A DNA stretch of 6,500 bases from a virus: UHGV virus genome UHGV-0235625, one strand, 5' to 3'. Below, piece by piece: positions 1 to 4,318 of the stretch; the first letter of the stretch is position 1; each line of letters begins with the position of its first letter. The translations under genes were made by a program, and so were the position numbers. A model generated the notes under the pieces. The model had not been told where the DNA came from. It saw nothing but the letters and a program-made list of their open reading frames with translations, and did no database searches.

Positions 1-58
1 ACGTAGACCGGTTAACACGATCTATATACTGATCTTTCTTTCTAAAAATATTAGCCAT
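1..58 (-). CDS. VP1: Major capsid protein VP1, first 19 codons (MANIFRKKDQYIDRVNRST); reading continues in frame across the window boundary into 6500..4315 if the molecule is circular
   Basis: The only ATG in this frame is at complement(56..58), with an in-frame stop upstream at 80..82. Translating 58->2, then pos1+6500+6499 (TTT), then 6498..6496 (GAT), joins exactly onto the frame of the 726-aa ORF. The join gives ...VNRSTFDLSFVNNLTMKFGAITPV..., matching the conserved Microviridae VP1 N-terminal RSxFD(L/R)S...KTTF motif. Confidence 0.75.
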   Translation of the reverse strand, partial: MANIFRKKDQYIDRVNRST

Positions 59-60
59 AA

Positions 61-261
61 TCAAAAATTTAAATTGATATCAGGAGTTTTTAACGTATCC
101 ACACGGGCACTGGTAGATTGCTCCGTAGATTGAGAAGATCCTTGATTCTTCCAGAACAAGGACATAGAGGCAGTACAACTATCCAAAAGGAGAGTAGCGG
201 CTACTCCTAAAATAAAAGTAGTCGCTAATTCAATGATCTTATAAAGCTTTTGCTTAGTCAT
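61..261 (-). CDS. Small predicted membrane-anchored protein (66 aa; MTKQK + ~20-residue hydrophobic helix LYKIIELATTFILGVAATLLL + DSC, then a polar S/T/Q-rich tail); candidate lysis (amurin-like) or signal-anchored/lipoprotein-like protein
   Basis: ATG at complement(259..261) and stop at 61..63, two nt upstream of the VP1 ATG. Its ATG overlaps the stop of the upstream ORF (ATGACTAAG). Codon usage (ACT, TCT, GCT, CCT, CGT, GAT) matches the large genes. The track ORF 61..273 is the same frame extended to an upstream TTG. Confidence 0.5.
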   Translation of the reverse strand: MTKQKLYKIIELATTFILGVAATLLLDSCTASMSLFWKNQGSSQSTEQSTSARVDTLKTPDINLNF

Positions 262-674: not shown

Positions 675-2069
675 TCACAAAGTCTCTTTATAAATTGAAA
701 GAATATTCTCGTTGTCAGTCTTATACTTGAGATAATTTATATCTAACTCGGGTTGAGTAGACATATATTGAAGCATAAATTCCAAATTAGAAGATTTAGC
801 AGCAATCATTTTCCGGTAATAATCCAAATCAAACTCGTAAGCATTCAAAAAGGTAAGAATAGGATTCAAAATATTCTCAATAACAAGTAAGCTATCCTCT
901 TTATAAGTAAGGAAAAACGACTTAGCATTCTTGTAAATAAAAGAAGGGAACCTTTTCACACACGTATCAAAATCGTAAAACGGGAGTTTTTCAGAGAGAT
1001 CTTTACGCACAACATTAACAGAATCATCTATCAAATCAAACTGAATTTGCCACAAACAAGCACGGATAGATAAATAATAATCAGCCAACTGTATAGTATC
1101 ACGAACCTCTTTAGGAACAAGAGCAGACGGACACGGAAACAGTTTCCGGCGGAAATAAGCAGGAATAAACGAAGTAAAACGCTCACCTGTAAACTTATCA
1201 ACGATTTCAATAGTCAAAACATCAGGGTTCTGATAAAACCACATGGAATGATCCATACACCAACGATAACCGAGACCACCATTACGACGAGACGACAAAA
1301 AGAAGACAGGTTTACAGCCTGAAGGAACTTCACTCTCTTTACGCATATACTTCATGCAATACTGAATACCACCTTGAGTGCAAGGTTTACAATAAACAAA
1401 GCCTATTTCACCTAAATAATTCCAATCATAGCGATGAGTAGATTTATTATAATATCGTTCTCGAATAGACCAAGCCTTAAGCACAACCTTATAAACATCC
1501 ATAGCAGACATATTAATAGGCATGTTCCACAAAATAAGATGATAATGAGGCAGTTTCGTATGACTACCATATTCAGAGGCGGCAAAATAGCGAATCTTTT
1601 CAGAATAATCATGATCTCGAACAAGAATTTGACGCAAACGCTTAAGAAAATCTTGAACATCTTTTTTAGAAACACCATCAGATGGACGATTAATAGGATT
1701 GTAAGTCAACGTAATAAAATAGGGAACACTACGAGAATACTGTGTCTCAGCAACAGCACGAAACATCCAGGAGCGGGCATTACGTTTTTTACAAAGGGAA
1801 CATTTTCGGCAAGGAGTAGCTAAAAACATAGGAACAGCATCACCATCAGCATCAATAGCATAATTAGAATCCTGCCACGCTACGGAGAAATCGGTTCCTT
1901 TCGGAGAGAACAGAACATAAGGGAACTCATACTTCCAGGCAGCACGTTGCATAGGGGGAACAAAATGTTCATCACCATTCTGTACATAACGACCAGTAGA
2001 GAGAACGGCAGTCCGAAAGGCAGGATTAAAGATATATGACGGGTGTTCACAAAGAATATTAGTATTCAT
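675..2069 (-). CDS. VP4: Rolling-circle replication initiation protein (HUH endonuclease, Microviridae VP4 / phiX174 gpA-like), 464 aa
   Basis: ATG at complement(2067..2069). RCR motif 1 FITLTY, motif 2 (HUH) LPHYHLILW, and motif 3 with two tyrosines, YCMKYMRK. Motif 3 has the same Y-x-x-K-Y-x-x-K spacing as phiX174 A protein YVAKYVNK. There is an N-terminal Cys cluster, PCRKCSLCKK. No Walker A motif is present, so this is not a helicase fusion. Confidence 0.9.
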   Translation of the reverse strand: MNTNILCEHPSYIFNPAFRTAVLSTGRYVQNGDEHFVPPMQRAAWKYEFPYVLFSPKGTDFSVAWQDSNYAIDADGDAVPMFLATPCRKCSLCKKRNARSWMFRAVAETQYSRSVPYFITLTYNPINRPSDGVSKKDVQDFLKRLRQILVRDHDYSEKIRYFAASEYGSHTKLPHYHLILWNMPINMSAMDVYKVVLKAWSIRERYYNKSTHRYDWNYLGEIGFVYCKPCTQGGIQYCMKYMRKESEVPSGCKPVFFLSSRRNGGLGYRWCMDHSMWFYQNPDVLTIEIVDKFTGERFTSFIPAYFRRKLFPCPSALVPKEVRDTIQLADYYLSIRACLWQIQFDLIDDSVNVVRKDLSEKLPFYDFDTCVKRFPSFIYKNAKSFFLTYKEDSLLVIENILNPILTFLNAYEFDLDYYRKMIAAKSSNLEFMLQYMSTQPELDINYLKYKTDNENILSIYKETL

Positions 2070-2104
2070 AATGTTTATATTTTTAAGTTGTTTTTTATTG
2101 TTTA

Positions 2105-2288
2105 CGCCTCGCCGGCGGGGCGTCTGCCGACGGCTGGTGTATATGGGCGGTCGGTTCTAACCGACCTCACCGAGCGCTCGCTTAAGGCGAGAATCGCTCT
2201 CCAACGGAATACTCGTTAGCTCGCTTCGCTCGTTTGTCCGGCAAGCCGGGCGTATATAGGGGGCAAACACGCCCCCTATTACCCCGTG
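2105..2288. other. GC-rich multi-hairpin intergenic element between the VP2-side genes and the Rep start. Candidate complementary-strand origin / primosome (ssi) recognition structure, or packaging or regulatory structure.
   Basis: There is an abrupt switch from an AT-rich genome to a ~180-nt block with roughly 60-65% GC by eye. Stems readable directly in the sequence: ggtcggtt(2149-2156)/aaccgacc(2159-2166); gagcg-ctcgc(2172-2181)/gcgag..cgctc(2187-2199); ccggc(2238-2242)/gccgg(2245-2249); atagggggc(2256-2264)/gccccctat(2271-2279) with loop aaacac; and the palindrome cgccggcg (2110-2117). There is no ORF on either strand. Confidence 0.5.
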
Positions 2289-2352
2289 TTAGTACTGAAG
2301 AATCAGAACGGATATTCATCACCTAATTCGGAATCAGGAATGAAAGGATAAG

Positions 2353-2538: not shown

Positions 2539-2805
2539 TTAGTCAATGCTGGCTGCTTGCGCCCAGTCCATATAGTCGTAACTACATAAGAGATTACGAC
2601 GCAAACGACGTTCACGAAAAACACCGTAAAATACATAACAACGCTCCGGAAAATCTTTATAAAGCCTGTCAAGAACCCACAGACAAAATTTATGGAAAGA
2701 ATTTCCAGAGAGAAGTACTAATAAGCAACTTTGAGGAACGTTAACCACTTCAACAAATTCCTCACAACCTTTGTCAATGTTAAAAAACTGTAAAATAAGT
2801 GTCAT
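2539..2805 (-). CDS. Hypothetical Arg/Cys-rich small protein, 88 aa (…GVFRERRLRRNLLC…); possible DNA-binding (J/VP5-like) protein
   Basis: ATG at complement(2803..2805), 80 nt downstream of the VP2 stop on the same strand. Codon usage matches the genome (six CGT Arg codons, GGT, GTT, CTT). It overlaps an alternative-frame 98-aa ORF and a plus-strand 77-aa ORF, both judged spurious. Confidence 0.45.
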   Translation of the reverse strand: MTLILQFFNIDKGCEEFVEVVNVPQSCLLVLLSGNSFHKFCLWVLDRLYKDFPERCYVFYGVFRERRLRRNLLCSYDYMDWAQAASID

Positions 2806-2885: not shown

Positions 2886-4001
2886 TTAATCATAATAATC
2901 ATAATCTTCGAATGTAGTCTTACCATCCTTAGAACGAGTAGTCATCTTAGAATGAATCTTACCAGACTTAGGAGTAGCAGGATTAGCAAACGGAACAAAA
3001 CCAGACAGAGTTCGAAGAACTTCATTAATATGATTCATAGTACGATCAAGATCATCCCAATTCATATCCTGAGACAAGTCAAACAATATACGAGATTGCT
3101 CAGCATTCGCCTTGAGACCAAGATCAGTGAAATAAGAAGCCATAGCCTGGTTTCTCTTTTCCTCAGATTTCATAAGAGGCAGCTTAGCCATCAATTCTAT
3201 GGTAGCATTCTTTAATTGTTCCTGAGAAACCTTTAACTGTCCTTGAAGAACTTTCAACTTTCCATGCTCAATAAACGAATCGAGAGCAACACGAACATGA
3301 CGCTCCCAAACACGATCATCAACATCAGCAGCTTGTGAAATAAGCAGATCTATCTCAGAATCAATCTTAGAAATATTAGCATCAATTTGCCGAACCATAG
3401 CACGAGCTTGAGAAGACTGTGAATCATTCAACTGAATCTTACTATCATTAACCAAAATAGAAGAATGAATAGTATCAAGCTGGCCTTGATTAAACGCATC
3501 ACGAAACGAAGCATCAGACTTTAGAATATCGTTATTATATTGCTGGCCTGTCGTTTCTGCAGTAGTCTTAGAAACCTGTGCAGACAAAGCAGTATCAGCA
3601 AGAGCCTGCGAAGCAACAGAACCAAGAGGTTTATAACGATTCCAGGCCGAAGTATCAGCAACAGGACCAGATGGAGTCATACCACCTTGTGCAGTTACTG
3701 ATTGACCTAAAGACTGACCGTTCGTATACATCAAATCAGGATTCATTCCGGCAGCTTTCAAACGAGCAATATTAGCAGAAGGAGTGTTATAGGCATTATT
3801 AGCTTCCCATAATTTATAATTCCAATCATTTTGCGCTTCACGCTCGGAAGTCTGCCAACGGCGGGCCTTCTCAGCTTCTTCTCGCGCTGCTGCGAGCTGT
3901 TTTTTGACAGTTTTATTCTGAGAAATAGCACCAAATAAATTAGAGATACCGGAGAGTGCTCCACCTATGAGAGCACTACCGGCACCTGAAAAAAAACCCA
4001 T
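2886..4001 (-). CDS. VP2: Minor capsid / DNA pilot protein VP2 (Microviridae), 371 aa
   Basis: ATG at complement(3999..4001), overlapping the upstream stop (TAATG). It has a Gly/Ala-rich N-terminus, MGFFSGAGSALIGGALSGISNLFGAI, and the Microviridae VP2 signature NTPSANIARLKAAGMNPDLMY. The central region is coiled-coil-like and Q/S-rich. Confidence 0.85.
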   Translation of the reverse strand: MGFFSGAGSALIGGALSGISNLFGAISQNKTVKKQLAAAREEAEKARRWQTSEREAQNDWNYKLWEANNAYNTPSANIARLKAAGMNPDLMYTNGQSLGQSVTAQGGMTPSGPVADTSAWNRYKPLGSVASQALADTALSAQVSKTTAETTGQQYNNDILKSDASFRDAFNQGQLDTIHSSILVNDSKIQLNDSQSSQARAMVRQIDANISKIDSEIDLLISQAADVDDRVWERHVRVALDSFIEHGKLKVLQGQLKVSQEQLKNATIELMAKLPLMKSEEKRNQAMASYFTDLGLKANAEQSRILFDLSQDMNWDDLDRTMNHINEVLRTLSGFVPFANPATPKSGKIHSKMTTRSKDGKTTFEDYDYYD

Positions 4002-4318
4002 TATTCAAGCTGCTTGCGCTTTTCGTTGTAAGCAGCTACAATCTTAGCGCGAGCATCACGTTGAGCATTCCAAATATCAGCAATATCCTGACCTCTACGA
4101 TATTCAACAGGAACAATCCAACTCTCTTCATCAGTAAAATCACTAGTAGGAAGATGAGAGATGTTCTGAGTAGAAATAGGGATACCAGCTTTAGCGGCTT
4201 CATACATTTGAGCCGGAGTGTAAGATAAATCTCCACGAACGGGAAGTTCACCAGCTTTGCGGGTACACGTACATGTACGGTAATTCCACGCATGAATTAC
4301 AACTTGTTTCATAATCAT
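4001..4318 (-). CDS. Hypothetical protein, 105 aa, translationally coupled between VP1 and VP2 (possibly scaffolding or minor structural; unassigned)
   Basis: Its ATG at complement(4316..4318) overlaps the VP1 stop (ATGA). Its stop overlaps the VP2 ATG. Codon bias is typical of the genome (GCT x9, CGT, CCT, GGT). Confidence 0.6.
   Translation of the reverse strand: MIMKQVVIHAWNYRTCTCTRKAGELPVRGDLSYTPAQMYEAAKAGIPISTQNISHLPTSDFTDEESWIVPVEYRRGQDIADIWNAQRDARAKIVAAYNEKRKQLE

What the first reader, a model, noticed from the sequence alone, without database searches (positions are those of the whole stretch)
61..261. Small N-terminally membrane-anchored protein immediately upstream of VP1 and translationally coupled to it: candidate single-gene lysis protein
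Microviruses carry no endolysin. phiX174 lyses with the small TM protein E, which inhibits MraY. Gokusho- and alpa-like phages have no assigned lysis gene. This ORF has a basic N-terminus (MTKQK), a ~20-residue hydrophobic helix ending LLLDSC (lipobox-like but atypical), and a polar S/T/Q-rich tail. Its codon usage matches the genome. It sits 2 nt upstream of VP1 with an overlapping start/stop with the preceding ORF. It could be an amurin-like lysis protein, a signal-anchored or lipoprotein-like protein, or a superinfection-exclusion factor.
Basis: inference. Interest (0 to 1): 0.65.

Follow-up and report, generated by a model that had tools for sequence, protein, structure and literature searches.

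The report
Conserved small lipoprotein of Bacteroides microviruses
The 66-codon reading frame just before the capsid gene is a real, strongly conserved gene for a small exported, probably lipid-anchored and sugar-modified peptide found in well over a thousand gut microviruses of Bacteroides, and it is the best (still unproven) candidate for how those viruses that lack a cell-wall-cutting enzyme break out of, or seal off, their host.

Summary
Window 61-261, minus strand, is a 66-aa ORF. Its ATG overlaps the stop of the preceding ORF and its TGA lies 2 nt before the VP1 ATG. The window is a whole circular microvirus genome. The ORF is under strong purifying selection (dN/dS about 0.11; 0.015 in the core C29-G41).

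It belongs to a large unannotated family (1,871 clusters) found only in microviruses, including dif-flanked prophages in Bacteroides chromosomes. The shared architecture is a charged N-terminus, a ~15-residue uncharged segment, hydrophobic/any/small/invariant Cys (lipobox-like), then CT-x-S-[ML]-S-[IV], a polar tail, and a near-universal D-[S/T]-[hydrophobic] Bacteroidota O-glycosylation sequon. This fits a cleaved lipoprotein better than a plain membrane anchor, but the window clade has an atypical Asp at -2.

Function is inferred. The genome has no detectable endolysin. None of 107 family-bearing loci carries an M15 peptidase. Ten peptidase-bearing microviruses lack the family and carry the peptidase in the same genomic slots. 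I favour a lysis role (about 0.4). Superinfection exclusion is the main rival (about 0.25). It is not a member of phiX174 E, colicin-lysis or spanin families. Coupling to VP1 is not universal; other lineages couple it to Rep.

The parts
61..261 (-). 66-codon gene plus stop for the small exported lipoprotein-like peptide (called LIPO family in this report)
   Evidence: ORF and translation. dN/dS about 0.11 over 18 genomes. 154 close and 1,871 distant homologue clusters.
229..261 (-). n-region, residues 1-11 (MTKQKLYKIIE), with K3, K5, K8 and a family-conserved acidic/basic pattern
   Evidence: Alignments. The pattern x-[WIL]-[IY]-[EK]-[IV]-[IV]-[KE]-[LI] recurs across subfamilies.
184..228 (-). 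h-region, residues 12-26 (LATTFILGVAATLLL), an uncharged hydrophobic core of 15 residues
   Evidence: Hydropathy maximum 1.86. The median uncharged run before position -2 is 15 in 284 members. Substitutions between subfamilies are hydrophobic-for-hydrophobic.
175..186 (-). Lipobox-like L26-D27-S28-C29; predicted Lgt/LspA site, with Cys29 becoming residue +1 of the mature peptide
   Evidence: Cys is invariant. Position -1 is S/G/A in 277 of 284 members, position -3 is L/V/A/M in 271 of 284, and position -2 is free (D, Q, H, V, E and others). 277 of 284 fit the PS00013-type pattern if -2 is left free; the window fails the strict pattern only by Asp at -2.
139..177 (-). Most conserved core, residues 29-41 (CTASMSLFWKNQG), membrane-proximal in the mature peptide
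   Evidence: dN/dS 0.015. S32, S34 and N39 are invariant in the 86-sequence alignment.
64..138 (-). Polar S/T/Q/N-rich tail, residues 42-66, with invariant Q44, Q48 and D55 and a C-terminal alternating pattern I-N-L-N-F
   Evidence: Alignment. AlphaFold2 gives pLDDT below 50 for residues 44-66, so the tail is predicted disordered on its own.
91..99 (-). D55-T56-L57, a match to the Bacteroidota general O-glycosylation sequon D-(S/T)-(A/I/L/V/M/T)
   Evidence: The sequon is present in 274 of 282 members, against about 51 expected from composition-preserving shuffles; 263 of 275 motif occurrences fall at one position, +27 from the Cys. The motif and the periplasmic site of glycosylation are from PMC8550257 and PMC12871550.
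254..261 (-). ATGACTAA start/stop overlap with the upstream 74-aa ORF (478-254)
   Evidence: Sequence. The upstream ORF is conserved in relatives.
56..63 (-). TGA-TT-ATG junction with VP1 (VP1 runs 58 to 1, then 6500 to 4315)
   Evidence: The same 2-nt spacing occurs in relatives.

Best explanation
The ORF encodes the precursor of a small envelope-targeted peptide that is a core gene of Bacteroides-infecting, dif-integrating microviruses.

Proposed path (inferred except where marked):
1. The N-terminal 28 residues act as a Sec signal peptide ending in a lipobox-like L-x-S-C.
2. Lgt and LspA lipidate and cleave at Cys29.
3. This leaves a 38-residue lipopeptide on the periplasmic side of a membrane. 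Its conserved CTASMSLFWKN motif sits at the membrane surface.
4. The disordered polar tail is O-glycosylated at T56 by the host's general glycosylation system.

Its most likely job is to compromise the host envelope at the end of infection, acting as a single-gene lysis protein. It would stand in for the M15 endolysin module that other Bacteroidales microviruses carry in the same genomic slot. It could do this by blocking a conserved periplasm-facing step of wall or outer-membrane biogenesis (amurin-like), or by lipoprotein-dependent permeabilisation as colicin lysis proteins do.

Shown here: the gene is real and under selection, the family architecture is conserved, the host is Bacteroides, the relatives are temperate, and the gene is complementary in distribution to M15. 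Inferred: export, lipidation, glycosylation, and the lysis role itself.
For: - Real gene under strong constraint.
- Family-wide signal-peptide and lipobox architecture with an invariant Cys.
- A periplasm-specific glycosylation sequon is conserved in 274 of 282 members, which argues that the tail is exported.
- Host is Bacteroides: prophages lie between gyrA/TPR and Usp/BatD genes and are flanked by dif-like repeats.
- No endolysin or other lysis candidate was found among the window's ORFs by Pfam, PHROGs, NCBIfam or PADLOC. Apart from the pilot protein VP2, this is the only ORF with an export or membrane signal.
- The gene is present in every one of more than 100 genomes sampled across two architectures, with VP1 identity down to 20-30%. 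It is always on the coding strand, and in most loci it abuts or overlaps the next core gene. That pattern fits an essential function better than a dispensable moron.
- 0 of 107 family-bearing loci have an M15 peptidase. 0 of 10 M15-bearing microviruses and 0 of 80 M15-bearing dsDNA-phage loci have the family.
- phiHBP1 has VP1 about 43% identical to family-bearing L070/L066. It carries 54aa+M15 in the Rep-[X]-VP1 slot where those genomes carry this gene.
- Other M15 microviruses carry the peptidase in the VP2-[X]-Rep slot, which the family uses in the second architecture (Roux 2012).
Against: - No experiment supports any of this.
- The complementary distribution is confounded by phylogeny and by how the two sets were sampled (each was selected for one gene). 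The shared slots may simply be the permissive places for accessory genes.
- Asp, Glu or Gln at lipobox position -2 is unusual, so cleavage and lipidation are not certain.
- The n-region is more conserved than a mere targeting signal needs. The uncleaved form, or the released signal peptide, may therefore matter.
- The relatives are temperate, and in prophages the gene lies at or near the attL end behind a Bacteroides-type -7 promoter motif. That also suits a lysogen-expressed exclusion gene.
- A few members give weak, N-terminal-only PHROG hits to a Sie-like family.
- High early expression, coupled to Rep or VP1, is not what one expects of a fast-acting lysis protein.
- AlphaFold2 gives no fold for the tail.
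Confidence: 0.4

Rival explanations
1. Superinfection-exclusion or receptor/entry-blocking lipoprotein, working like T5 Llp, Cor or TP-J34 Ltp. The periplasmic lipopeptide would bind a conserved host envelope component or the incoming pilot protein VP2. It would stop further microviruses from adsorbing or injecting, both in lysogens and late in infection.
For: - Relatives are dif-integrated prophages of Bacteroides.
- In these prophages the gene is the first (L033-L036), second (L038) or fourth (L037) gene after attL and a TAnnTTTG promoter-like motif.
- In the window's architecture it sits next to the receptor-binding capsid gene, as llp sits next to the T5 receptor-binding gene (comparison from memory).
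- 7 of 86 members give weak hits to PHROG 8545 'Sie-like'.
- Small phage lipoproteins are a classic exclusion device (established knowledge).
Against: - Exclusion genes are usually accessory and variable. This one is present in all sampled genomes of several deep lineages.
- Its core is nearly invariant while VP1 diverges to 20-30% identity.
- The PHROG hits cover only the signal-peptide region, with E of 0.002 or higher.
- This reading does not explain the complementary distribution and slot-sharing with M15 peptidase.
Confidence: 0.25
2. Uncleaved type II signal-anchor membrane protein (N-in, C-out). Its transmembrane helix plus juxtamembrane motif would bind a membrane enzyme of wall synthesis, as the phage M LysM or phiX174 E helices do. 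The Cys would serve another purpose, for example dimerisation.
For: - AlphaFold2 models one continuous helix over residues 3-40, with high confidence for residues 1-30.
- The n-region and parts of the h-region are conserved within subfamilies.
- Position -2 is often D, E or Q, which is atypical for lipoboxes.
- The rabbit microvirus keeps only a 30-aa signal-like ORF next to its M15 peptidase.
Against: - The uncharged core is only 15 residues, bounded by E11 and D27. That is short for a membrane span and typical of a signal-peptide h-region.
- The trio of hydrophobic -3, small -1 and invariant Cys holds in 277 of 284 members, which is what LspA/Lgt recognition predicts.
- Across subfamilies the h-region sequence is free to change, while the residues after the Cys are fixed.
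Confidence: 0.15
3. Outer-membrane-disrupting spanin-like lipoprotein. It would complete lysis started by another, unrecognised phage function, for example an overprinted gene.
For: - Its size and lipoprotein character resemble o-spanins such as Rz1.
- A +1-frame ORF inside Rep stays open in 20 of 22 relatives. The +1 frame of Rep is significantly open in several other lineages.
Against: - There is no i-spanin-like partner, no C-terminal membrane segment, no Pro-rich domain and no endolysin in the genome.
- The family never occurs next to M15 endolysins in microviruses or in 80 dsDNA-phage loci.
- The window's overprinted ORF is no longer than synonymous-codon shuffles allow (p = 0.12).
Confidence: 0.07

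Closest known systems
Colicin lysis proteins / bacteriocin release proteins (Pfam Lysis_col; e.g. ColE1 Kil, pCloDF13 BRP)
   Same: Both are very small lipoprotein precursors: about 45-66 aa, giving a mature lipopeptide of about 28-38 aa. Both have a polar S/T/Q-rich mature part. Both are encoded on a small replicon without an endolysin. The proposed effect, envelope permeabilisation or quasi-lysis caused by the lipoprotein itself, is the same. The sequence comparison is from memory.
   Different: There is no sequence match: the Pfam scan returned nothing at E of 1 or below. The host phylum differs (Bacteroidota rather than Enterobacteria) and the gene is viral rather than plasmid-borne. This family has a conserved glycosylation sequon and an unusual -2 residue. 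BRP action depends on OmpLA and a stable signal peptide, and neither could be tested here.
phiX174 E and other single-gene lysis proteins (amurins: E/MraY, LysM and SglPP7/MurJ)
   Same: Both are the sole small membrane-targeted non-structural protein of a tiny ss-genome phage that has no endolysin. Both have a conserved membrane-proximal sequence that could bind a conserved envelope-synthesis enzyme.
   Different: This gene is not overprinted; it has its own reading frame. It has no Pfam hit and no Pro in the hydrophobic segment. Its predicted topology is N-in/C-out with an exported tail, whereas E has a cytoplasmic C-terminal domain. It is probably cleaved and lipidated, which no described amurin is, as far as the searched literature shows.
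Phage superinfection-exclusion lipoproteins (T5 Llp, Cor of T1/phi80/N15, Ltp of TP-J34)
   Same: Both are small phage-encoded lipoproteins exposed to the periplasm. In the window's architecture the gene is adjacent to the receptor-binding structural gene. The relatives are temperate. A few members hit a Sie-like PHROG weakly.
   Different: This is a core gene with a near-invariant active region across deeply divergent capsids, not a variable accessory gene. The mature part is shorter and predicted disordered. There is no detectable homology beyond the signal peptide.
o-spanins / u-spanins (lambda Rz1, T1 gp11)
   Same: Both are small phage lipoproteins involved in release from Gram-negative cells.
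   Different: There is no partner i-spanin, no C-terminal membrane domain and no endolysin or holin context. The family is absent from endolysin neighbourhoods.

Membership tests
Bacterial lipoprotein (signal peptidase II substrate) | Positively charged n-region within the first residues | tested here: met
   K3, K5 and K8 are present. K/R occur near the N-terminus in most family members.
Bacterial lipoprotein (signal peptidase II substrate) | Uncharged h-region of about 7-22 residues directly before the lipobox | tested here: met
   15 residues in the window (L12-L26). The median is 15 over 284 members.
Bacterial lipoprotein (signal peptidase II substrate) | Lipobox [LVI]-[ASTVI...]-[GAS]-C with an invariant Cys at +1 | tested here: inconclusive
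   Position -3 is L, position -1 is S and the Cys is invariant in the family. 277 of 284 members fit a PS00013-type pattern (recalled from memory) if -2 is left free, and 122 of 284 fit it strictly. The window has Asp at -2, which the pattern excludes. No SignalP or LipoP was available.
Bacterial lipoprotein (signal peptidase II substrate) | Diacylglyceryl modification and LspA cleavage demonstrated | not testable with these tools
   Needs globomycin sensitivity, lipid labelling or mass spectrometry.
phiX174 E-type lysis protein | Sequence membership (Pfam Microvir_lysis) and an essential Pro in the N-terminal membrane helix | tested here: not met
   No Pfam family at E of 1 or below. There is no Pro in residues 1-59.
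phiX174 E-type lysis protein | Gene overprinted inside another gene; cytoplasmic basic C-terminal domain | tested here: not met
   The gene has its own frame between two ORFs, overlapping them by only 8 nt. The tail is polar and nearly neutral, and it carries a periplasmic glycosylation sequon.
phiX174 E-type lysis protein | Inhibits MraY; depends on SlyD | not testable with these tools
   Requires genetics or biochemistry.
Colicin lysis protein (Lysis_col) | Match to the family profile | tested here: not met
   Pfam scan gave 0 families at E of 1 or below.
Colicin lysis protein (Lysis_col) | Small lipoprotein precursor giving a lipopeptide of roughly 30 residues that causes quasi-lysis | tested here: inconclusive
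   Size and architecture agree: 66-aa precursor, 38-aa predicted mature part. The effect on cells was not tested.
Spanins | Adjacent or embedded i-spanin partner, or a C-terminal membrane domain (u-spanin); lysis-cassette context with an endolysin | tested here: not met
   None of these is in the window. The family is absent next to M15 endolysins.
Superinfection-exclusion lipoproteins (Llp/Cor/Ltp, PHROG 8545) | Sequence relationship to a known Sie family | tested here: inconclusive
   The window protein has no hit. 7 of 86 members hit phrog_8545 with E of 0.0024 or higher; the one such match inspected covers the N-terminal third of the profile, positions 7-57 of 177.
Superinfection-exclusion lipoproteins (Llp/Cor/Ltp, PHROG 8545) | Blocks adsorption or DNA entry of the cognate phage | not testable with these tools
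   Needs plating or adsorption assays in a Bacteroides host.
Bacteroidota O-glycoproteins | D-(S/T)-(A/I/L/V/M/T) sequon in a non-cytoplasmic, soluble region | tested here: met
   D55-T56-L57 in the window. The sequon is found in 274 of 282 members, 263 of 275 occurrences at one position, against about 51 members expected by chance. Motif definition. Actual glycosylation was not tested.

The most novel reading that the evidence does not exclude
The family would be the first lipoprotein-type single-gene lysis protein. It would be a lipid-anchored, O-glycosylated peptide of about 38 residues. It would kill Bacteroidales by binding a conserved periplasm-facing step of envelope biogenesis, such as lipid II flipping or recycling, lipoprotein trafficking or outer-membrane assembly. 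It would be the functional alternative to the M15 endolysin module in gut microviruses. That would also yield a new 'protein antibiotic' target in Bacteroides.
Probability: 0.3. Interest if true: 0.8.

Novelty: new variant of a known kind. Interest (0 to 1): 0.6.

Why it matters
Outside phiX174 it is not known how microviruses leave their hosts, and microviruses are among the most abundant phages of the human gut. This gene is a concrete, testable candidate for a very large group: 1,871 sequence clusters, in gut viromes of humans, rodents, lemurs, tortoises and chickens. Every public record of it reads 'hypothetical protein', and it matches no Pfam or NCBIfam family and only weak, partial PHROG hits.

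If it causes lysis, it would define a new class of single-gene lysis protein and point to a vulnerable envelope step in Bacteroides. If it excludes superinfecting phages, it would be the first immunity function known for temperate microviruses. Either way, the conserved lipobox and glycosylation sequon show a 6.5-kb virus relying on two host-specific protein-modification pathways.

Tried and rejected
- Profile searches of the 66-aa protein against Pfam, NCBIfam and PADLOC found nothing; PHROGs gave only two non-significant matches (E 0.098 and 0.21). A family profile against PDB sequences also found nothing.
- AlphaFold2 with an 86-sequence alignment gave one helix and a disordered tail (pLDDT 66). 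I did not run a fold search because it would be meaningless.
- The broad alignment A2 was too diverse for locus searches, so I used a narrower one, A3.
- The genome-contig scan gave only 3 loci, of which only one, in a Bacteroides MAG, has clear chromosomal context.
- A second M15-based scan of viral contigs returned only dsDNA phages and no extra microviruses.
- Two apparent co-occurrences of the family with M15 (L053, L066) were short non-coding-strand ORFs with marginal E-values. I rejected them.
- The idea of an E-like overprinted lysis gene in the window (ORF 1678-1412 inside Rep) is not supported. Its length is within what synonymous-codon shuffles give (p = 0.12).
- Signal peptidase I cleavage following the Bacteroidetes Q-rule was considered because Gln is common at -2. 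I rejected it because the residues before that Gln are often V, I or L, and the window clade has Asp there.
- No dif-like attP was found in the window (3 loose matches against about 2 expected), and the Bacteroides -7 promoter motif occurs at or below chance (3 matches against about 7 expected). The sigma-70 scan is not informative for Bacteroides.
- Rfam found nothing in the window.

Full report
**What is there.** The window is a complete circular microvirus genome of 6,500 nt, with all genes on the minus strand. VP1 starts at the ATG at 58-56 and reads across the 1/6500 junction. The reported ORF runs from 261 to 61 on the minus strand and encodes 66 residues. Its ATG lies inside ATGACTAA, which also holds the TAA of the upstream 74-aa ORF. 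Its TGA is followed by TT and then the VP1 ATG. A 19-residue hydrophobicity maximum of 1.86 lies at residues 9-27. Codon usage follows the genome's T-ending preference only in this frame, though more weakly than in VP1.

**Is it a gene?** Yes.
- A search of 5.8 billion proteins returned 154 relatives at 74-98% identity. Nearly all are exactly 66 aa and sit on contigs of about 6.5 kb.
- GenBank relatives (Dulem virus 258, SH-CHD12) have the gene in the same place. So do all 15 IMG/VR loci, found through VP1, whose sequence covers the whole region upstream of VP1; two further loci cut at their 5' end retain C-terminal fragments.
- Across the window and 17 relatives, differences concentrate at third codon positions (8.0, 3.8 and 20.7 per pair). 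Median dN/dS is 0.115 at dS near 1. Codons 29-41 have dN/dS 0.015.
- The protein is about as conserved as VP1 or more so: 80-85% identity where VP1 is 64-71%.

**The wider family.** A profile search of 1.84 billion cluster representatives found 57 matches, about 50 of them small proteins of 48-125 aa. A profile search of the larger collection found 1,871 clusters, most of the listed ones on contigs of about 6-6.7 kb. GenBank microviruses from human, rodent, lemur, tortoise, dog and chicken faeces carry the gene. It is annotated 'hypothetical protein' or not annotated at all.

The shared architecture is:
- a short N-terminus with Lys and a conserved acidic/basic pattern;
- an uncharged stretch of about 15 residues;
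- hydrophobic, any, S/G/A, then an invariant Cys;
- T-x-S-[ML]-S-[IV]-x-[KW]-[NK]-N;
- a polar linker with invariant Gln residues;
- D-[ST]-[TLVIA];
- a short alternating hydrophobic/polar C-terminus.

**Lipoprotein or anchor?** Of 284 members, 277 fit a PS00013-type lipobox pattern (recalled from memory) if position -2 is left free, and 122 fit it strictly. The window clade fails only because of Asp at -2. Between subfamilies the hydrophobic stretch changes freely, while the residues just after the Cys are fixed. That pattern fits a cleaved signal peptide followed by a functional mature N-terminus. AlphaFold2 models only a helix over residues 3-40 and leaves the tail disordered. I could not run SignalP or LipoP, so lipidation is likely but unproven. 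An uncleaved signal anchor remains a rival.

**A second host-specific mark.** The invariant Asp55 belongs to D-T-L in the window and to D-S-T in most other members. This is the Bacteroidota general O-glycosylation sequon D-(S/T)-(A/I/L/V/M/T). It is used in the periplasm on non-cytoplasmic proteins and is usually fully occupied (PMC8550257, PMC12871550). The sequon is present in 274 of 282 members, nearly always at the same position, against about 51 expected from shuffled tails. This supports export of the tail and a Bacteroidota host. It predicts a glyco-lipopeptide.

**Host and lifestyle.** Exact-protein look-ups and a genome scan found the gene in microvirus prophages inside Bacteroides chromosomes. 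They lie between a TPR gene downstream of gyrA and a Usp gene followed by BatD. The prophages are flanked by imperfect direct repeats that resemble dif sites. Examples are CATAATATTGATTAT in L037 and TATATTAAACAT..TCATGATATT in L038. This matches what Krupovic and Forterre described for Alpavirinae proviruses. The window itself shows no convincing dif-like site.

**Genomic position.** The loci sampled show two main architectures.
- Type A, as in the window: Rep, small ORFs, this gene, VP1.
- Type B, the classical Alpavirinae order: VP2, this gene, Rep, VP1.
- In a third prophage lineage (L033-L036) the gene is the first gene after attL.

The next gene usually starts within a few nucleotides or overlaps it. 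Tight coupling to a downstream core gene is general. Coupling to VP1 specifically is not.

**What does it do?** The window's other ORFs give VP1, VP2, Rep and four small proteins with no significant family match and no export signal, and no peptidase or lysozyme. Some Bacteroidales microviruses do encode an M15 peptidase, a probable endolysin. These include the only cultured one, phiHBP1. The distribution is as follows:
- None of 107 family-bearing loci has an M15 gene. Two marginal hits were spurious.
- None of 10 M15-bearing microvirus genomes has the family.
- None of 80 dsDNA-phage endolysin neighbourhoods has it either.
- phiHBP1's VP1 is about 43% identical to family-bearing type A genomes (L070, L066). 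That places it inside the diversity spanned by family-bearing genomes. It carries 54aa+M15 between Rep and VP1, exactly where they carry this gene.
- Other M15 microviruses carry the peptidase just upstream of Rep, in the type B slot. Roux et al. described the same two slots.
- In a rabbit microvirus the peptidase is followed by a 30-aa ORF that resembles only the signal-peptide half of the family (E = 0.015).

Together with universal retention across deep lineages, this makes a release or lysis function the best-supported reading. I give it about 0.4. How a lipopeptide would lyse is inference. One option is blocking a conserved periplasm-facing step of envelope synthesis, amurin-like. The other is lipoprotein-dependent permeabilisation, as small colicin lysis lipoproteins do.

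**Rivals.**
- Superinfection exclusion (about 0.25) fits the temperate lifestyle, the position near attL behind a TAnnTTTG motif, and the general use of small lipoproteins for exclusion. The weak PHROG 'Sie-like' hits lie at the N-terminus, which holds the signal region. This reading explains neither the core-gene behaviour nor the M15 complementarity.
- An uncleaved membrane-helix amurin is given about 0.15.
- A spanin-like accessory role is given about 0.07.
- An overprinted E-like gene in the window is not supported. ORF 1678-1412 inside Rep stays open in 20 of 22 relatives, but it is no longer than synonymous-codon shuffles allow (p = 0.12). In contrast, the +1 frame of Rep is significantly open in several other lineages. 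That is a separate lead.

**Comparison with known families.** The protein works most like a colicin lysis lipoprotein or an amurin, or like Llp, Cor or Ltp if the rival is right. It is a member of none of them. It has no profile match, no overprinting, no Pro-containing helix, no i-spanin partner and no endolysin context (see the membership table). The searched literature on microvirus lysis, Alpavirinae and single-gene lysis proteins does not mention it.

**Verdict.** This is a real, widespread and so far unannotated gene family with a clear predicted cell biology (export, lipid anchor, O-glycan). Its role is plausible but unproven. Interest is 0.6: it makes the open question of lysis, or immunity, in gut microviruses directly testable.

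Noticed in passing
window 2100-2290 (both strands; intergenic, upstream of Rep on the minus strand): A GC-rich island (60% GC in a genome of about 38%) that folds strongly as single-stranded DNA (-47.6 kcal/mol, z = -4.0), with hairpins such as TAGGGGGCGTGTTTGCCCCCTA. Forty-five nt (about 2252-2296) are 98% identical to L038 13960-14004, a Bacteroides prophage of a distantly related microvirus. 25 of 110 related loci have a comparable GC-rich block. It could be a complementary-strand origin or primosome site, a terminator, or a small mobile element. There is no Rfam match.
   Followed up: partly
window 1412-1678 (-), and Rep genes of L088, L038, L117, L062, L113, L032, L127: The +1 frame across the HxH motif region of Rep is open for 70-209 codons in most lineages (median 136, against 27 in the +2 frame). 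It is significantly longer than synonymous-codon shuffles in L088, L038 and L117 (p of 0.008 or less) and at p about 0.02-0.03 in four others. It is not significant in the window (p = 0.12). This may be an overprinted gene inside Rep, as genes B and K are inside A in phiX174.
   Followed up: partly
L033-L038 (prophages); L037 3910 and 10378; L038 9720 and 15916: Three different microvirus lineages are integrated at the same Bacteroides locus, between a TPR gene downstream of gyrA and a Usp/BatD cluster. All are in the same orientation and flanked by dif-like imperfect repeats. A TAnnTTTG Bacteroides -7 promoter motif lies just inside attL. The window itself has no convincing dif-like site.
   Followed up: partly
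L128 (rabbit microvirus MT150091) 1138-1230: A 30-aa ORF (MKKLKTVLKIIGAVCAALLSALGVESLNLI) overlaps the stop of the M15 peptidase gene. It resembles only the signal-peptide half of the lipoprotein family (E = 0.015) and lacks the Cys and the mature part. It may be a remnant, or a holin-like partner of the peptidase.
   Followed up: no
window 2539-2805 (-): The 88-aa Cys-rich ORF between VP2 and the GC island has a counterpart in only 1 of 23 relatives and no significant family match. The VP2-Rep interval is the variable part of these genomes.
   Followed up: no
window 4001-4318 (-): The 105-aa ORF just after VP1 is the most conserved small protein of the clade: 87% mean identity and intact in 23 of 23 relatives. 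It has no family match. It sits where a VP3-like scaffold protein has been proposed for Alpavirinae.
   Followed up: no
L124 3245-3367; L125 3018-3125: M15-bearing microviruses carry tiny hydrophobic ORFs (35-40 aa; in L124 a membrane helix followed by a basic tail) between VP2 and the peptidase. These are candidate holins and are unrelated to the lipoprotein family.
   Followed up: no
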